Assembly (NCBI GenBank): GCA_949505625.1
Contig: CATBQD010000009.1
Coordinates: forward strand, 476 to 64,475
Direction: 5' to 3'
From: an uncultured Bacilli bacterium
Lineage (GTDB): Bacteria > Bacillota_I > Bacilli_A > RF39 > UBA660
Length of the DNA stretch: 64,000 nucleotides
In this document: piece after piece, positions 3,001 to 60,684 of the stretch
Numbering within the stretch: position 1 is the stretch's first letter
How the letters are laid out: each line of letters begins with the position of its first letter
Position numbers and translations under genes: made by a program
The notes under the pieces: generated by a model
Seen by the model: the letters and a program-made list of their open reading frames with translations, nothing else
The model's database searches: none
What the model was told of the DNA's origin: nothing

Positions 3001-6000
3001 AGAGTTACTGATAAATTAGGAAATTATAAGACATATGCTTACAATGTTTTACTGAATGTAGTAACCGAAAGAAATGAAAAAGGTATTTATATATATTATA
3101 CATATGATGATAGAGGTAATTGTATTGAAAAGAAATTAGGTTCCACTATCATTGAACAAAATGAATATGATTTGATGAATAACTTAGTGAAAAAAACAGA
3201 CGCTAATAAGAATGTAATGACATATGAATATAATGTTTTAAATCAATTGATAAAGAAGACAAATCCATTAGGTTATATAGAAGAATATGAATATGATAAA
3301 AATGGCAATTTAATTAAAATGAAAGATTATCAAAAAGAAATATTGTATTCTTATGATAATAGAGGAAATTTATTAAAAACGGTAGAACAAACATTAGATG
3401 GAAAAGAGAAAATAGAAACATCTAAAGTATATGATAATAATAACAATGTGATTAAAGAAATAGATGGAAATGGCAATATAACAACTTATACTTATGATGG
3501 CTTAAATAATGTTATTAAAATGAAAAATCCATTGAATCAAGAAACATTATATGAATATGATAATAACAATAACTTAGTGAAAGAAACAAACTATTTAGGA
3601 GATTCTAAAACTTATATTTATGATTCTTTTGATCGATTAATTGAAAAGAAAAATGAATTAGGAGAAACGATTGAAAAATTAGAATATGATTTCAATGGTA
3701 GACAAGTTAAAAGTATAGATGGATTAGGTCATACGACTACATTTGTTTATGATAAATTAGATAGAGTGATAGAAAAAATAGATTCATTAAATAGAAGTGA
3801 AAAAACAACTTATGATGCATTAGGAAATGTATTGACAAAAACAGATGCCAATGGAAATATTACAAAATATGTATATAACGACTTTAATAAAGTAACAAAG
3901 GTAACCAATGCATTAAATGAAAGTACTATCTATACATATGACAATAATAGTAATCTATTATCAGTAACAGATGGAAATAGTAAGAAAATAATTTATACTT
4001 ATAATGCTTTAAATTTAGAACTAACAGAAAAAGATGCATTAGGATTTATTGAAACAAAAGAATATAATTCAAATGGAATTTTAAAGAAAAAAACAACCAA
4101 AAATGGTTCTGAAATTAATTATACTTATGATATTCATAACAGATTGATTAAAGAAAATGATATTACTTACAAATATGATAATAATGATAATTTGTTAGAA
4201 ATTAAGGAAAATGAAAATGTAATTACTAGAGCTTATGATCAGTTAAATCGAGTAACAAAGAAAACAGAAAATAATCTTACAACAACATTTACTTATTCTG
4301 ATTATAGTGAAAAAACAGTTGATCCAAAAGGAAATGAAACAGTAAAAAACTATGATAAAGTAGGAAGATTAAAAGAAGTAGTTGGAGAAGCAGTTTATAC
4401 TTACAACTTAGATGGAACTGTTAAAAAAGTAACTTATCAAAATGGTTCAACTGAAGAATATAGTTATAAAGATGATAAGTCATTAGATACTTTAGTAAAT
4501 ACTTATCATGAGAAAGAAGAAACTTATCGTTATAGTTATGACAATAATAAAAATATCATTTCAAAATATGAAAATGGAAAAGAAACGAGTTATACTTATG
4601 ATGCATTAAACCGATTAAAAACAATTAGTGAATTCAGTTATAACGAAATAGAAAATGAAGAATTAGAAAAAGTAGAAACACTACTTACTACATATCTTTA
4701 TGATAAAGCAGGAAATAGAACCAAAGAAATAACCAGTAATATTACAAAAGAATATACTTATGATTCTAATAATAGACTTACAAAAATAATTGAAAAAGAA
4801 GATAATATAATTACAAAAACAACTATCTATACTTATGATAGTAATGGAAATCAGTTAACAGAAACCGTGAATAATGAAGTAAAAGAAACAAGTACTTATA
4901 ATGAAAGAAATGAGTTAGTAAAGGTAGTTACAGATAAAGAAACTATATATACTTATAATCCAGAAGGAAAACGAATTCAAAAACAGCAAGATAATAAAGT
5001 GATTAAATTTGTTTATGAAGGATTAGATGTTATATTAGAGTTAGATGAAAATGATAATGAGTTATCACATAATACATATGGATTAGCTTTAATATCAAGA
5101 GAGAACTCTAGTAAAGGATATTATTTATATAATGGTCATGGAGATACAGTAAGTATTGTAAATGAAGAAAATAATTTATTAAATAGCTATACATATGATG
5201 AATGGGGAGTTATAATAGAAAGTAATGGAGAGTTTGATAATCCATATAGATATGCAGGATATTATTATGATTTAGAAACAGATAATTATTATTTATTAAG
5301 TAGATATTATAATCCAGAGATAGGAAGATTTATAAGTGAAGATACCTATAGAGGAGATTATAATGACCCACTTAGTTTAAATAGATATGTATATGTAATA
5401 AACAATCCATTAATTTATATTGATCCAGATGGGTATTGGCCTAAATGGTTAGATGATTTTGGAAATTGGATAGGAAAGCGTGGGAAAGCTGTAGGAGAAG
5501 CAGCATATGAGTTTGTAGTTGATACAGGAAAAGGAACGTTAGATTTATTAGGAACAGTAAGTGGATATGTTATATCAGAAGCTGGAAAGTTTACAAATGG
5601 CTTGGCTTATGATATGGGAATAATAACAGATTATAATTATGCAGATGCTCAAAAACTTTATGGGAATTTGCATGATGTAACGAGTATGAAATTAGCCCAG
5701 ATGCCAGAAAATATAATAACAGGAATACAACAGAATTTTACTACAACATTTAATTATGATAATTTTATAAATTATTTAACAACAGATAATTATAATGATA
5801 TAAAAAATTATTCAAAATCAGTAATACAAACAGGAGTAACATTATATGGAGGATATAAGACAGCAAAAGGAATAAATAATTTAGCAAATGTAGTAAGTAA
5901 TGTAAGTATAACAACAAAACAAATACCAATAGGAAGTGTTATAAATAATAATGGTACATTATCATTAACAACAGCAACAGTACCAACTATAACGGGTATT

Positions 6001-47920: not shown

Positions 47921-48229
47921 ACTTCCCCTACTTTATTTTTAAGATTTAAAAGTAGAGTAGTATAAGGTAAATTCTAAGACCAAAAACTTTTAAAAGATGA
48001 TTAATTATATATCTAAGATGCTTAAAATAAAGCTAAGTAGATAATTAATTGATAAAAAGAATCTTATGAATAATAGTGTGATTAATGATTCATTATAATA
48101 TTATAAAGTTAAAAAATAATTATAAGTTAATAATTAGATGATATATTTTATATGATAATAGTATTTGTTTTAACCATATAAAATATACTTATCTTAGTAT
48201 TATTTATAGTTTTAAATCCATATGTTTAA

Positions 48230-48257
48230 CTTTCTATAATGTATAGAATTTTAAGTT
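48230..48257. other. Hybrid dif-like site (left arm and central region identical to the dif site at 56618; right arm divergent). Putative IMEX attL.
   Basis: ACTTTCTATAA TGTATA GAATTTTAAGT. The first 17 bp are identical to the 56618 site. The right arm matches 7/11. Confidence 0.6.
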
Positions 48258-48307: not shown

Positions 48308-48454
48308 ATGATGAAAGAATATTTAGATTATTTATATTATAATGATCTTTGTGAACATTCTGGAGAAATAAAACCTTTTCCATTTTTAAAAATATTCGTT
48401 TTTGGCGGTATAATTGGTTTGACTTGTATCTTGTTTAAAAATAGATATTTATAA
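48308..48454 (+). CDS. Small membrane peptide (48 aa)
   Basis: MMKEYLDYLYYNDLCEHSGEIKPFPFLKIFVFGGIIGLTCILF. AAAGGAG lies 8 nt upstream of the ATG at 48308. Confidence 0.35.
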   Translation: MMKEYLDYLYYNDLCEHSGEIKPFPFLKIFVFGGIIGLTCILFKNRYL

Positions 48455-48487
48455 TGTATAGTAATTAAGAAAATTGGTGTAAAAAAA

Positions 48488-48718: not shown

Positions 48719-48740
48719 CTTTACTCTTTTTAATTTAAAA

Positions 48741-48808
48741 TTACAAAATAAGGCTATTGCGTTTTGTGTATGCACAAAACGTTTTCCCCCTATAGGCTTA
48801 TTTTGTAA
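48741..48808. repeat. Long imperfect palindrome (stem-loop/cruciform)
   Basis: TTACAAAATAAGGCTAT..ATAGGCTTATTTTGTAA (16/17 pairing) enclosing CGTTTTGTG tatg CACAAAACG (9/9). There is an asymmetric TTTTCCCCCT bulge. Confidence 0.7.
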
Positions 48809-49031
48809 TAATATTAATATATATAATTAAAAATAATATGTAAGAAAGTTAAGACTAACTTTCTTACATAACATCTTTGTCATTAGAGCTCCCATAAAAA
48901 AAGTGTGTCTCCCCCTCGAAAAAAACTCTTTTAATAGGTGTAGAAGTGATAAGCTTACTTTAGCGAAAGCGTTACTTCATTGCATAATGAAAATTTCTAT
49001 TTGTCCCCAAATTTTTATGCCGCGAAAGTTA

Positions 49032-49061
49032 TTGACTTTTTGTTGAGCCATTTGGTAAAAT
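49032..49061 (+). promoter_or_regulatory. Strong sigma-A-type promoter inside the IR-bounded segment
   Basis: TTGACT - 18 nt - TGGTAAAAT (extended -10), then AAGGAGAG. Only a 5-22 codon ORF follows, then a hairpin AGAGGA..TCCTCT + TTCTCAATTTT. Confidence 0.5.
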
Positions 49062-49258
49062 AAGGAGAGTTAAATTGAATGAGAGAGGAGAGTTAGTCCT
49101 CTTTCTCAATTTTACAAGTAGAATCGCTAGTTTTTATTACTGAATAATTAGCAAGAGATAGTATATAAGCGATTTCTAAAGTCATAAATTTAATAGGAAA
49201 GGTTATCCATCTTTGATAATTCATAAATTCATCTCCTTTCAATAAAAAAATCGAAGTG

Positions 49259-49468
49259 TTAAGAAAAGTCGGAATTATCTTTGAAATTATAAACGAGATT
49301 GAACACTCCATCTTCATAACGATAAACTGGAATCCAATTATCTTCTCCGACTTTTCGAAATTTCATCGCCTCGAATTCGATTGCAAAATCTCGGGCTTCT
49401 TCAAACGTTTCGAATTTCTTAGTTAAAATAATAAATCCGAGGCGTTCAAAATAAAATTCATATTCCAT
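49259..49468 (-). CDS. Small acidic protein (69 aa) inside the IR-bounded segment
   Basis: MEYEFYFERLGFIILTKKFETFEEARDFAIEFEAMKFRKVGEDNWIPVYRYEDGVFNLVYNFKDNSDFS. GGAGG lies 8 nt upstream of the ATG on the minus strand. The longer 138-aa ORF-track version starts inside the right IR. Confidence 0.45.
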   Translation of the reverse strand: MEYEFYFERLGFIILTKKFETFEEARDFAIEFEAMKFRKVGEDNWIPVYRYEDGVFNLVYNFKDNSDFS

Positions 49469-49809
49469 GTGAAATACCTCCTCTCTAGTTCTAAAAAGAA
49501 CAAAGTTCGAAGACCAAATTACGAAAAAAAAGTCAATAAACCGTGGAATAAAAACCCTATTTAAAATAGAAATTTGCATTATAACTAGCCCGATATTTAA
49601 AAACAATTTCGCCCTTAGCTTGTAATCACTTCTGCAGGAACCTGTTTCAAAGAGTTTTTTTCGAGGGGGAGACACACTTTTTTAATTAAGCGAGATTACA
49701 CAACTAATCTTACTTTTTTATTATTTTTAATCGAAAAAAATACCGTTACAATCAACGATATTTTTATTTTAAGTTCATAAGTCTAACTAAGTTATAGATT
49801 ATAATTTGA

Positions 49810-50025
49810 TTAAATTATAAAATTAAAAATTGTATATAAAATCATTCCAATTAAAGAACCCCATATAGTGAATCCACAAGCAATTACAATTCCTTCAGAA
49901 ATAGTTATTGTTGTTTCTTTTTTAAATTCACAACATTTTTGCTTATTGTCCCAAAATTCACATTCAGAATTGCATTTGTTTTTTTCTTCTTTAGTAGAAA
50001 TGAAAGGACAAAATTTTTCATCCAT
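49810..50025 (-). CDS. Cys-rich small membrane protein (7 Cys + C-terminal TM)
   Basis: MDEKFCPFISTKEEKNKCNSECEFWDNKQKCCEFKK...IVIACGFTIWGSLIGMILYTIFNFII. Confidence 0.45.
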   Translation of the reverse strand: MDEKFCPFISTKEEKNKCNSECEFWDNKQKCCEFKKETTITISEGIVIACGFTIWGSLIGMILYTIFNFII

Positions 50026-50078: not shown

Positions 50079-50300
50079 TTATTTTTTAGGATAAGGTTCT
50101 TTTTTATCTGTTAACCCAATAATATAATCGACTGATGTTTCGTATAAATAAGATAACTTTACAAGTAAATCTATAGGTATAAGTCTTTTATTTAATTCGT
50201 ACATACTATAGTGCTGTTGTGATATTCCTAAAAATTCTGCTATTTGTATTTGTGACTTATCTTTTCTTTCTCTTAGTTCTTTTAATCTTTTTATTTTCAT
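50079..50300 (-). CDS. XRE-family (Cro/cI-type) HTH repressor of the prophage
   Basis: KDKSQIQIAEFLGISQQHYSMYELNKRLIPIDLLVKLSYLYETSVDYIIG. Divergent from the phage structural/replication genes. Confidence 0.75.
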   Translation of the reverse strand: MKIKRLKELRERKDKSQIQIAEFLGISQQHYSMYELNKRLIPIDLLVKLSYLYETSVDYIIGLTDKKEPYPKK

Positions 50301-59781: not shown

Positions 59782-60684
59782 CTATCCATGTGGATGAAAT
59801 TTTTTATAATCGTCCTTTAATTTTTCATTAGAAACATGGGTATAAATTTGTGTTGTTGATAAGGAACTATGGCCTAACATTTCTTGAATATCTCTTAAAT
59901 TAGCGCCATTTTGTAATAGATGTGATGCAAAGGAATGTCTTAATGTATGTGGTGAAAAAGAAGTATCTATTCCTTTTTCTTTTGCTAATGACTGTATCAT
60001 TTTAAAAATAGCTTGTCTAGTTAAGCCAGTTCCATGATTATTAATAAATAAATATTCATTCCAGCCTTTGATTAATAGTTGGCTTCGATAGTGGTATAAG
60101 TAAATATGAAGGGCATTTAATGCATAATCTCCGATTGGAACGATTCGCTCTTTATTCCCTTTTCCTATTGTTCTTACAATAGACATTTCAAAGTCAATAT
60201 CCCCTACTTTTAAGTTCACAATTTCACTAACACGCAATCCACTTGCATACATAAGCTCTAAAATAGCTTTGTTTCTAGCACTAAAGGCATCATTAACAGA
60301 AATATCAAGTAATAAGTCAATTTCTTCTATGCTAAGCACTTTCGGTAATTTTTTAGGCTGTTTTGGAATTGGTATTTCTTCAAGAGGATTTTCTTTTACA
60401 TAATGATGAATTAATAAAAATTTATAAAAGGAACGTAAACAAGAAATATTATGAGAAATACTTCTAGCGCTTTCTTCTTGTAAGGTACTAATATATGCTT
60501 CCATATTTTTTAAACTTAAATTTAAATTGAAATGATTCTTATTTAAAAACAAAGCAAATTTTTCTAATTCAAAAGTATAAGAATTCCTTGTATTTTCTGT
60601 ATATCCTTTATCAATATATAAGTATTCAATAAACGCTTCTCCATAAGGTGGCAGTATTTTTGTTCTTTCCATACGATTCACCAT
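59782..60684 (-). CDS. xerD: Tyrosine site-specific recombinase XerD
   Basis: C-terminal catalytic region HTLRHSFASHLLQNGANLRDIQEMLGHSSLSTTQIYTHV. N-terminal core-binding domain. 300 aa. Confidence 0.8.
   Translation of the reverse strand: MVNRMERTKILPPYGEAFIEYLYIDKGYTENTRNSYTFELEKFALFLNKNHFNLNLSLKNMEAYISTLQEESARSISHNISCLRSFYKFLLIHHYVKENPLEEIPIPKQPKKLPKVLSIEEIDLLLDISVNDAFSARNKAILELMYASGLRVSEIVNLKVGDIDFEMSIVRTIGKGNKERIVPIGDYALNALHIYLYHYRSQLLIKGWNEYLFINNHGTGLTRQAIFKMIQSLAKEKGIDTSFSPHTLRHSFASHLLQNGANLRDIQEMLGHSSLSTTQIYTHVSNEKLKDDYKKFHPHG

What the first reader, a model, noticed from the sequence alone, without database searches (positions are those of the whole stretch)
48897..49683. Perfect 35-bp inverted repeats bracketing a 0.72-kb promoter-containing segment (invertible switch or MITE?)
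AAAGTGTGTCTCCCCCTCGAAAAAAACTCTTT at 48897 is the exact reverse complement of the sequence at 49649. Perfect IRs of this length 716 bp apart are very unlikely by chance in AT-rich DNA. Inside are a near-consensus promoter (TTGACT-18-TGGTAAAAT) followed by a strong RBS that leads only to a tiny ORF and a hairpin. A 69-aa acidic ORF on the opposite strand starts just inside the right IR. I see no target-site duplication and no adjacent recombinase, and the xerD gene is 10 kb away. Candidate explanations are an invertase-controlled promoter switch (phase variation), a non-autonomous MITE, or a phage regulatory region. It lies within the IMEX accessory arm, next to a 68-bp palindrome that shares a CCCCCT core.
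Basis: seen in the sequence. Interest (0 to 1): 0.6.

Follow-up and report, generated by a model that had tools for sequence, protein, structure and literature searches.

The report
Phage single-strand origin hairpin carrying genes
The two inverted repeats are the two halves of a long hairpin that can form only when this filamentous prophage's DNA is single-stranded; it rebuilds the kind of promoter that rolling-circle plasmids use to start second-strand synthesis, and here it is split by two small genes placed so that they could be read from it.

Summary
A perfect 35-bp inverted repeat (48897-48931 / 49649-49683) occurs only twice in the window, against about 0 expected. It is only the tip of two ~215-nt inverted arms. 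The left arm carries TTATGCCGCGAAAGTTA, the RSB signature of single-strand origins (sso) of Gram-positive rolling-circle plasmids, followed by TTGACT-18-TG-TAAAAT. The right arm carries the partner GTCAATAAACCGTGGAATAAA with the family's conserved mismatches. The same two motifs form compact ~150-nt hairpins in about 25 metagenome loci and on a Bacillus rolling-circle plasmid, with compensatory changes in at least 7 sequence variants. Related inovirus prophages at dif have the hairpin at the same position: contiguous in L062, with one ORF in the loop in L005, and with two ORFs (69 and 43 aa) in the window. The best reading is the phage's minus-strand origin, a single-stranded-DNA promoter whose loop carries genes oriented to be transcribed from the viral strand. 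An invertible switch and a MITE are both unlikely: there is no recombinase, no target duplication and no other copy, the promoter faces inward, and the two arms are orthologous across phage lineages. This is a new variant of a known kind. The function is inferred, not shown.

The parts
48897..48931 (+). Left perfect 35-nt repeat; base ('clamp') of the long hairpin, 5' side
   Evidence: pairs with 49649-49683 in the ssDNA fold; aligns with the outer RSB-like stem of L062 and the 29-nt repeat of L005
49649..49683 (+). Right perfect 35-nt repeat; base of the hairpin, 3' side
   Evidence: its inner 7 nt plus 6 nt of flank (49643-49655) are deleted in L001/L002
48894..49107 (+). Left arm (non-template side): clamp, GAAGTGAT block, 19-nt block 48984-49002, RSB, -35, extended -10, mirror copy of the RBS
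   Evidence: 78% identical to the reverse complement of the right arm over about 215 nt; orthologous to the left arms of L005 and L062
49470..49686 (+). Right arm (template side): complement of the RBS, the -35 and the RSB partner, a TTCC bulge, clamp
   Evidence: no sigma-70-like promoter is called on its minus strand
49015..49031 (+). RSB-like motif TTATGCCGCGAAAGTTA
   Evidence: 14/17 identical to the RSB of plasmid pSELNU1, TTATGCCGAGAAAATTT (PMC4598058-type citation: PMC4598088); single occurrence in the window; the pattern recovers 35 metagenome loci
49532..49552 (+). RSB partner GTCAATAAACCGTGGAATAAA (includes the complement of the -35)
   Evidence: single occurrence in the window; the same motif with the same conserved mismatches is in 21+ compact hairpins and a Bacillus plasmid
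49032..49061 (+). Promoter on the left arm: TTGACT, 18 nt, TG, TAAAAT
   Evidence: 10/12 with TG; the -35 is paired with 49531-49536, TTTGGT is paired with 49513-49518, and the -10 and start region face non-complementary sequence, forming a bubble
49057..49081 (+). Unpaired -10/+1 bubble (opposite 49487-49512)
   Evidence: arm alignment; the same bubble is present in L005 and L007
49477..49486 (-). RBS AGAGAGGAGG of the 69-aa gene; its mirror copy on the left arm is 49082-49090
49259..49468 (-). 69-aa acidic ORF in the loop (orphan protein)
   Evidence: no Pfam, PHROG or NCBIfam match; AlphaFold model pLDDT 68, beta-beta-alpha-beta-beta; start codon 63 nt after the right-arm -35, as in five other loci
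49093..49224 (-). 43-aa ORF in the loop with RBS AAAGGAG; its stop lies inside the left-arm hairpin
   Evidence: called as a gene on L001
49081..49105 (+). Small hairpin plus T-rich tail; likely end of the short plus-sense RNA made from the left-arm promoter in double-stranded DNA; antisense to the 3' end of the 43-aa ORF

Best explanation
The 0.79-kb segment is a single-strand origin / single-stranded-DNA promoter hairpin of the RSB-containing class found in Gram-positive rolling-circle replicons. It belongs to an inovirus-type prophage integrated at dif. When the viral (+) strand is single-stranded, at entry and during rolling-circle replication, the two ~215-nt arms anneal. The perfect 35-bp repeat clamps the base. 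The RSB helix, with its conserved internal loop, and the -35 helix are rebuilt as duplex. The -10/+1 region stays open as a bubble. Host RNA polymerase binds and uses the right arm as template, so the RNA is complementary to the viral strand. That RNA can prime minus-strand synthesis, which is the classical sso role. Because the loop here holds two small genes in the template orientation (69 aa and 43 aa, with an RBS 25-30 nt downstream of the predicted start), the RNA can also serve as their mRNA. Expression would then be confined to the single-stranded phase. Once the DNA is double-stranded, the right arm has no usable -10. The left-arm promoter then fires in the opposite sense and makes a short RNA antisense to the 3' end of the operon. 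Shown here: the anatomy, homology to sso hairpins, covariation, conservation of position and the strand logic. Inferred: polymerase binding, priming, and single-strand-dependent expression of the loop genes.
For: 1. The arms are homologous over about 215 nt, not just 35 nt. The ssDNA fold pairs them end to end: -129.9 kcal/mol, z = -11.1.
2. The left arm carries the RSB signature, 14/17 to the published RSB (PMC4598088). RSB lies in the loop-distal stem and is needed for RNA polymerase binding (PMC8860593). It also occurs in ssoU, ssoT and ssoW (PMC5703833).
3. The same motif pair forms compact hairpins in 21+ metagenome loci and on the 8-kb MOBV rolling-circle plasmid NZ_CP139192.1.
4. Covariation supports the pairing. 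In the 18-sequence alignment, 94% of cells are paired against 35-45% when partners are slid, and the covariation score is 0.23 against 0.095 (0/500 shuffles). The triplet before TTGAC and its partner co-vary as CTA, CCC, TTA, CCA, CTC, CAC and TCGA, and GCCG[C/T]G co-varies with C[G/A]TGG. An invariant G.T wobble marks the RSB-bearing strand as the folded one.
5. The position is conserved in the phage lineage. L062 has a contiguous 467-nt hairpin with a 65-nt loop (z = -7.3). L005 has one ORF in the loop. The window has two. Left and right arms are separately orthologous, for example the TTCC bulge occurs only in right arms, while the clamp sequence differs between phages yet stays self-complementary.
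6. The RSB strand is the rep-sense strand in the window, L005, L007 and the Bacillus plasmid. All phage structural genes are on that strand.
7. Promoter and gene are coupled. An RBS and start codon lie 52-63 nt after the right-arm -35 in six loci with unrelated ORFs: the window, L005, L007, L006, L012 and L014. In L014 the operon includes an SSB (Pfam E = 5.6e-15), paralleling Frpo->ssb in the F plasmid (PMC9849209).
8. No double-stranded promoter is detectable for the loop genes on the right arm.
Against: - There are no functional data of any kind.
- The canonical CS-6 (TAGCGT) is not in the loop on the RSB strand. TAGCGA occurs only in an internal loop of the left arm.
- Classical ssos are contiguous, non-coding and 150-300 nt long. 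A 0.43-kb coding loop is untested and could hinder folding in SSB- or G5P-coated DNA.
- The packaged strand is inferred from gene orientation, not determined.
- The loop genes could be expressed by read-through from the repressor operon, because no strong terminator was called at 49690-49810.
- The loop genes are orphans, so their reality rests on an RBS, a moderate AlphaFold model and gene calls.
- The loci were fetched with a left-arm pattern, so left-arm conservation is partly by ascertainment.
- Two metagenome variants carry a 13-nt deletion in the right clamp.
Confidence: 0.7

Rival explanations
1. Double-stranded convergent-promoter / antisense module, similar to a type I toxin-antitoxin. 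The left-arm promoter makes a small RNA antisense to the 3' end of a minus-strand small-protein operon. The arm similarity is a by-product of a duplicated regulatory region bound by one regulator, with no role for single-stranded DNA.
For: There is a strong left-arm promoter and a hairpin overlapping the stop of the 43-aa ORF. The 43-aa ORF has a hydrophobic stretch. L006 has a 31-aa hydrophobic peptide behind the same hairpin. This antisense layer can coexist with the best explanation.
Against: It does not explain the RSB signature or the identity of the motif pair with plasmid sso hairpins. It does not explain compensatory changes that keep the arms complementary, the cargo-free contiguous hairpin at the same place in L062, or the lack of a -10 for the supposed sense promoter. 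The main products (69 aa here, 41 aa in L005) are acidic and soluble-looking, not toxin-like.
Confidence: 0.12
2. Non-autonomous transposable element (MITE) with 35-41-bp terminal inverted repeats, inserted into the prophage.
For: It has terminal inverted repeats and is under 0.8 kb. A related ~247-nt RSB-hairpin cassette does occur with unrelated flanks in 11 metagenome loci, so members of this hairpin family can be dispersed.
Against: There is no target-site duplication. There is a single copy in the window and no exact 24-mer match in genome or viral collections. Homologous hairpins occupy the same position in phages whose Rep is 64-80% identical, with left and right arms separately orthologous. 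That means vertical inheritance, not recent insertion.
Confidence: 0.06
3. Invertase-controlled invertible promoter (phase-variation switch).
For: Perfect inverted repeats flank a strong promoter.
Against: The promoter faces inward and lies 100 nt from its repeat, so inversion recreates the same internal arrangement and aims nothing outward. There is no invertase or tyrosine recombinase within 10 kb. The window and two independent metagenome contigs share one orientation. The repeats are homologous to the stem of contiguous hairpins.
Confidence: 0.03
4. The hairpin is only the minus-strand origin. The loop ORFs are passive cargo or spurious, expressed if at all by read-through from the repressor operon, with no single-strand-dependent gene expression.
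For: Classical ssos make only about 20-nt primers (PMC8860593; PMC4595007). L062 works without cargo. No terminator was called between the 71-aa gene and the right arm.
Against: The distance from the right-arm -35 to the RBS and start codon is conserved at 52-63 nt in six loci with unrelated ORFs, including one with ssb. Every loop ORF is in the template orientation.
Confidence: 0.25

Closest known systems
RSB-containing single-strand origins (ssoA/palA, ssoT, ssoU, ssoW) of Gram-positive rolling-circle plasmids; sso1 of ICEBs1
   Same: The RSB motif sits on the displaced (rep-sense) strand in the loop-distal stem of a long imperfect hairpin. The hairpin is recognised as a promoter by host RNA polymerase and is orientation-specific. 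The same motif pair is found on a Bacillus rolling-circle plasmid.
   Different: Here the host element is an inovirus-type prophage at dif. The arms are 0.43-0.5 kb apart with two ORFs in the loop. A 35-bp perfect basal clamp is added. CS-6 is not in the canonical loop position. The sso subtype is not assignable.
Frpo / ssi single-stranded DNA promoters of F and ColIb-P9 leading regions
   Same: A hairpin rebuilds the -35 and -10 only in ssDNA. Genes are encoded so that the incoming strand is the template. Expression is switched off by conversion to dsDNA, and the RNA can also act as a primer (PMC11541004; PMC9849209). L012/L014 even show hairpin->ORF->ssb.
   Different: No sequence relation to Frpo was sought or is expected. 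The host is Gram-positive and the element is a phage rather than a conjugative plasmid. The genes lie inside the hairpin loop rather than downstream of it. In the papers read, ssDNA promoters driving genes are exemplified only by Gram-negative plasmids (PMC8708921).
Minus-strand origin of Ff (M13/f1) filamentous phages
   Same: Hairpins in the viral strand mimic a promoter, and RNA polymerase makes the primer for complementary-strand synthesis (my own knowledge; the general statement is in PMC4595007).
   Different: The Ff origin is a compact, non-coding pair of hairpins with no RSB motif, and no genes are embedded in it.
Invertible promoter switches (fimS, hin) and MITEs
   Same: Inverted repeats bracket a sub-kilobase segment that contains a promoter.
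   Different: There is no recombinase, no outward-facing promoter, no second orientation, no target duplication and no multiple copies. The repeats are the stem of a conserved hairpin.

Membership tests
RSB-type single-strand origin (sso) of rolling-circle replicons | RSB consensus (TTATGCCGAGAAAATTT-like) on one strand | tested here: met
   49015-49031 TTATGCCGCGAAAGTTA, 14/17 to the published RSB; unique in the window
RSB-type single-strand origin (sso) of rolling-circle replicons | Extensive imperfect hairpin in ssDNA, with RSB in the loop-distal stem paired to a partly complementary partner | tested here: met
   ssDNA fold z = -11; partner at 49532-49552 with the family's conserved mismatches; covariation
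RSB-type single-strand origin (sso) of rolling-circle replicons | CS-6 (TAGCGT/A) in the terminal loop on the same strand | tested here: not met
   On the + strand TAGCGA occurs only at 48961-48966, in the left arm on the loop-distal side of RSB; there is none in the loop
RSB-type single-strand origin (sso) of rolling-circle replicons | Located on a rolling-circle replicon, on the displaced (rep-sense) strand | tested here: met
   G2P-type Rep at 54754-55935 on the same strand; same relation in L005, L007 and NZ_CP139192.1. That this strand is the one displaced or packaged is inferred.
RSB-type single-strand origin (sso) of rolling-circle replicons | Contiguous non-coding element of about 150-300 nt | tested here: not met
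   790 nt with two ORFs in the loop; the sister lineage L062 is contiguous (467 nt)
RSB-type single-strand origin (sso) of rolling-circle replicons | Orientation-specific promotion of ss-to-ds conversion through an RNA polymerase-made primer | not testable with these tools
   Needs an ssDNA accumulation assay or in vitro priming
Frpo/ssi-type ssDNA promoter | The hairpin reconstitutes -35 and -10 boxes | tested here: met
   -35 TTGACT is paired; the extended -10 TG-TAAAAT is on the non-template arm at the edge of a bubble
Frpo/ssi-type ssDNA promoter | Downstream genes are encoded so that the single strand is their template | tested here: met
   The 69-aa and 43-aa ORFs are on the minus strand and the hairpin-bearing strand is +
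Frpo/ssi-type ssDNA promoter | Sequence homology to Frpo/ssi of IncF/IncI plasmids; location in a conjugative leading region | not tested
Invertible promoter switch | A site-specific recombinase is adjacent, and both orientations exist | tested here: not met
   No recombinase within 10 kb; 3 of 3 sequences have the same orientation. Raw reads were not available.
MITE | Target-site duplication and multiple dispersed copies | tested here: not met
   No duplication; one copy in the window and none in the genome or viral collections by exact 24-mer

The most novel reading that the evidence does not exclude
RSB-type hairpins may be the Gram-positive counterpart of Frpo. They would be promoters that exist only in single-stranded DNA and drive protein-coding cargo during the first minutes after entry of a phage or conjugative element. 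In this inovirus the cargo (two orphan small proteins, one strongly acidic) sits inside the origin hairpin itself. One structure would then couple second-strand priming, a burst of early gene expression and, after conversion to duplex, antisense shut-off from the same promoter. The unrelated small ORFs in L005, L007, L006, L012 and L014 (the last with ssb) would be a pool of early establishment or anti-defence factors.
Probability: 0.35. Interest if true: 0.8.

Novelty: new variant of a known kind. Interest (0 to 1): 0.6.

Why it matters
Minus-strand origins of Gram-positive filamentous phages are essentially undescribed. This one links them to the RSB-type origins of rolling-circle plasmids and conjugative elements, so the module appears to be shared across three kinds of mobile element. 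If the loop genes really are transcribed from the folded single strand, this is a compact timing device that expresses genes only while the genome is single-stranded. It would extend single-stranded-DNA promoters, so far exemplified by Gram-negative plasmids, to Firmicutes and to phages. It would also flag a set of small orphan proteins as candidate early or anti-defence factors. On the practical side, long inverted repeats around a promoter in single-stranded-DNA elements should not be called phase switches or MITEs by default, and such hairpins break metagenome assemblies.

Tried and rejected
- Rfam found nothing on the window region or on 11 related loci.
- Exact 24-mer scans of the repeat core found nothing in viral or genome collections.
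- blastn of the element against 50,697 phage records gave no match.
- A Rep-based scan of viral contigs found no relatives.
- Homology searches for the 69-aa and 71-aa proteins returned only themselves. Pfam, PHROGs and NCBIfam were empty for both loop ORFs and for the cargo ORFs of other loci, except SSB.
- The AlphaFold model of the 69-aa protein has pLDDT 68. Foldseek against the PDB gave only non-significant kinase N-lobe hits with E > 0.08, so no function is assigned.
- The invertible-switch and MITE readings were rejected for the reasons given under the rival explanations.
- I considered whether the 35-bp repeat is a dif/attP-like site and rejected it. It has no similarity to the dif-like repeats at 48229 and 56619.
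- I considered CS-6 in the loop and did not find it.
- High-GC 'flipped' hairpins in viral contigs show no clear ORF behind the right arm, so promoter-gene coupling is not universal in the family.
- Similarity of AAAGTGTG in the clamp to the basal stem of the compact cassette is suggestive only and is not used as evidence.

Full report
OBSERVATION. The repeat is real. Arms 48894-48934 and 49646-49686 are 41 nt and 95% complementary, with a perfect 35-nt core at 48897-48931 / 49649-49683. The 32-mer occurs twice in 64 kb even when three mismatches are allowed, and no match appeared in any of 100 shuffles. The promoter is present: TTGACT 49032-49037, an 18-nt spacer, TG, TAAAAT 49056-49061. So are the hairpin at 49081-49105 and the minus-strand 69-aa ORF. 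First, a second minus-strand ORF of 43 aa (49224->49093) has its own RBS. Second, the inverted symmetry continues far inward (48984-49002/49564-49582 and 49029-49044/49524-49539). Each arm is therefore about 215 nt, and the arms are 78% identical in inverted orientation. Each arm contains, in the same order, the clamp, a GAAGTGAT block, a 19-nt block, TTTAT-CC-CG, TTATTGACTTTTT, TTTGGT and AGAGAGGAG. The left arm has a good -10 and no gene. The right arm has the gene and no -10.

CONTEXT. The window is about 26% G+C and carries spoIVB-like, spoIIM, mscL and mnmA genes. An inovirus-type prophage lies between 48.2 and 56.6 kb. It encodes an HTH_3 repressor (50079-50300, minus strand), a coat-like 60-aa protein, a 578-aa and a 91-aa protein, Zot (53850-54761) and a G2P-type Rep (54754-55935). 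The prophage is bounded by direct dif-like repeats (48229-48256; 56619-56646). The second repeat resembles the B. subtilis dif site as I recall it from memory. Cumulative GC skew flattens at this point. The XerD-like gene at 59782-60684 is chromosomal.

WHAT THE ARMS ARE. A related prophage, L005 (Rep 64% identical), has the same architecture at the same position. It has a compound palindrome followed by inverted arms (29-nt outer repeat, 3749-3777/4314-4342). The left-arm promoter region is nearly identical to the window's (TTTATGCCGYGAAAGYTATTGACT ... TTTGGTAWAATAAG). One small acidic minus-strand ORF sits in between. Aligning all four arms shows left-with-left and right-with-right orthology; for example, a TTCC insertion occurs only in right arms. 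The outer repeat differs in sequence between the phages yet is self-complementary in each. Scanning metagenomes with the left-arm pattern returned 35 loci. In most of them the pattern is the 5' arm of a compact ~150-nt hairpin whose 3' arm is GTCAATAGACCGTGGAATAAA. That is the same partner, with the same mismatches, as window 49532-49552. The motif is the RSB element of single-strand origins. The published RSB is TTATGCCGAGAAAATTT (PMC4598088), against TTATGCCGCGAAAGTTA in the window. [quoted passage not shown] It occurs in ssoA, ssoU, ssoT and ssoW (PMC5703833). The compact hairpin is also present on an 8-kb MOBV rolling-circle plasmid of Bacillus sonorensis. Rfam holds no model for it.

PAIRING IS SELECTED. 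I aligned 18 non-identical hairpins, with the loops of the split, compact and 'flipped' forms replaced by GAAA. In this alignment 94% of cells pair, against 35-45% when partners are slid. Seven pairs show double changes. The covariation score is 0.23 against 0.095 in shuffles (0/500). Across all loci the triplet before TTGAC and its partner co-vary as CTA, CCC, TTA, CCA, CTC, CAC and TCGA, and GCCG[C/T]G co-varies with C[G/A]TGG. An invariant G.T wobble in the RSB helix would be an A.C mismatch on the other strand. The RSB-bearing strand is therefore the one that folds. That strand is the rep-sense strand in the window, L005, L007 and the Bacillus plasmid. Folded as ssDNA, the window element gives -129.9 kcal/mol (z = -11.1), with the arms paired from the clamp up to the RBS mirror. 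L005 gives z = -8.6.

A GRADED SERIES. The sister lineage L062/L063 has a Rep 80% identical and the same mnmA flank. At the same place it carries a contiguous 467-nt hairpin (4654-5120) with a 65-nt loop and no ORF. It has two RSB-like motifs, and the outer one (TTATGCCGAGAAAAC) aligns with the window's perfect repeat. The series is therefore L062 with no cargo, L005 with one ORF (41 aa) and the window with two (69 and 43 aa). L007 is a small replicon with an HUH Rep immediately upstream. It has a split RSB hairpin with a 42-aa ORF in the loop. The window's repeat is thus the base of a hairpin whose loop has been colonised by genes.

MECHANISM. The shown parts are the anatomy, the homology, the covariation and the strand relations. 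The rest is inferred from established knowledge: sso hairpins of Gram-positive rolling-circle plasmids are recognised as promoters by host RNA polymerase, which makes the primer for the second strand (PMC4595007). In the hairpin the left arm supplies the non-template -35 and extended -10. The -35 and TTTGGT are base-paired, while the -10 and start region face unrelated sequence and form a pre-opened bubble. Transcription would run along the right arm into the loop, giving RNA complementary to the viral strand. That RNA has the sense of the 69-aa and 43-aa ORFs. An RBS and start codon lie 52-63 nt after the right-arm -35 in six loci with unrelated ORFs. In L014 the operon contains an SSB gene. 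This mirrors the Frpo->ssb arrangement of the F plasmid, where ssDNA promoters drive early genes until the DNA becomes double-stranded (PMC9849209; PMC11541004). In duplex DNA the right arm shows no promoter. The left-arm promoter would instead make a short RNA that ends at the 49081-49105 hairpin and is antisense to the stop region of the 43-aa ORF. The 'RBS leading nowhere' is the mirror of the true RBS at 49477-49486.

RIVALS. An invertible switch fails on four counts: promoter direction, absence of a recombinase, uniform orientation in three sequences, and homology of the repeats to a hairpin stem. A MITE fails on absence of a duplication, single-copy status and positional orthology across phage lineages. 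However, a ~247-nt RSB-hairpin cassette is dispersed in unrelated flanks in rumen or gut metagenomes. A purely double-stranded antisense module does not explain RSB, the covariation or the cargo-free homologue. The most serious alternative is that the hairpin is only an origin and the loop ORFs are passive, expressed by read-through from the repressor operon.

LIMITS. There are no experiments. CS-6 is not in the loop. The packaged strand is inferred. The loop proteins are orphans with no family or fold match. The loci were ascertained through the left-arm motif. Two near-identical metagenome contigs lack 13 nt of the right clamp, and one of them diverges inside the left repeat at very low coverage.

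VERDICT. The switch and MITE interpretations are not supported. The element is best read as an RSB-type single-strand origin / ssDNA promoter hairpin of a Gram-positive inovirus, unusual in carrying genes in its loop. It is a new variant of a known kind. Confidence in the structural identification is about 0.85. Confidence in the origin function is about 0.65. Confidence in single-strand-dependent expression of the loop genes is about 0.35-0.45.

Noticed in passing
window 48740-48809; L005:3613-3674; L062:4497-4569: A compound palindrome (outer stem, inner 10-bp hairpin, 3' bulge TTTTCCCCC) folds at -22.2 kcal/mol (z = -9.3). It has a structural twin of different sequence in L005 (bulge CTTCCCCCA, z = -8.5) and a close copy in L062, always just upstream of the sso hairpin. 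It may be a second conserved single-strand element: a packaging signal, the plus origin or a terminator.
   Followed up: partly
window 48229-48256 and 56619-56646: Direct dif-like repeats bound the 8.4-kb inovirus prophage. The right one, ACTTTCTATAATGTATATTATGTTAACT, is close to the B. subtilis dif site as I recall it from memory. The left one shares only the first arm and the centre. Cumulative GC skew flattens here, so the window probably spans the replication terminus. A third partial copy is at 48450-48466.
   Followed up: partly
L008, L009, L010, L019, L022, L026, L028, L029, L031, L032, L033 (about -38 to +208 around the RSB match): A discrete ~247-nt unit, GAGGCTTCACTAGAAAGTGTGGGTA...[RSB hairpin]...ACCCACTGGTTCTAGGGAAGAGCC, is more than 80% conserved in 11 metagenome loci whose flanks on both sides are unrelated. 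This is a dispersed, possibly mobile, sso-hairpin cassette.
   Followed up: partly
L012 and L014 (upstream of the RSB match, complementary strand): A 'flipped' RSB hairpin (partner arm, short loop, RSB arm) is followed on the template side by an RBS, an unannotated 88-90-aa ORF and then an SSB gene (Pfam SSB E = 5.6e-15). This looks like a Gram-positive analogue of Frpo->ssb in the F plasmid.
   Followed up: partly
L006 (upstream of the RSB match, complementary strand): The same flipped hairpin precedes a 31-aa hydrophobic peptide, MIFNQSLDINCLGIIISFAVLMLTIIEIKRS, which resembles a type I toxin.
   Followed up: no
window 49643-49655; L001, L002: Both 99%-identical metagenome contigs lack these 13 nt, which removes the inner end of the right repeat and leaves a 28-bp perfect stem. 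The last 18 nt of L002 diverge inside the left repeat, but its coverage is 1.4x and the end is unreliable.
   Followed up: partly
L001, L002, L003, L064-L071 contig ends: Many metagenome contigs of this phage family end in or next to the long hairpin. It appears to break short-read assemblies.
   Followed up: no
L016 (RSB match at 1058): Here the left arm alone is present. It is fused after TATGGTA to unrelated sequence, giving TTGACA-N17-TACAAT in front of a gene. An sso half may have been recruited as an ordinary promoter.
   Followed up: no
window 48837-48870: A 15-bp-stem bidirectional terminator-like hairpin sits between the compound palindrome and the left repeat. It is conserved in L062 (4596-4630).
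   Followed up: no
window 49810-50025 (minus strand); L005:5001-5234: A 71-77-aa protein with a Cys-rich N-terminus (CP..C..C....CC) and a C-terminal transmembrane helix is conserved next to the repressor in this phage family. It has no family match.
   Followed up: no
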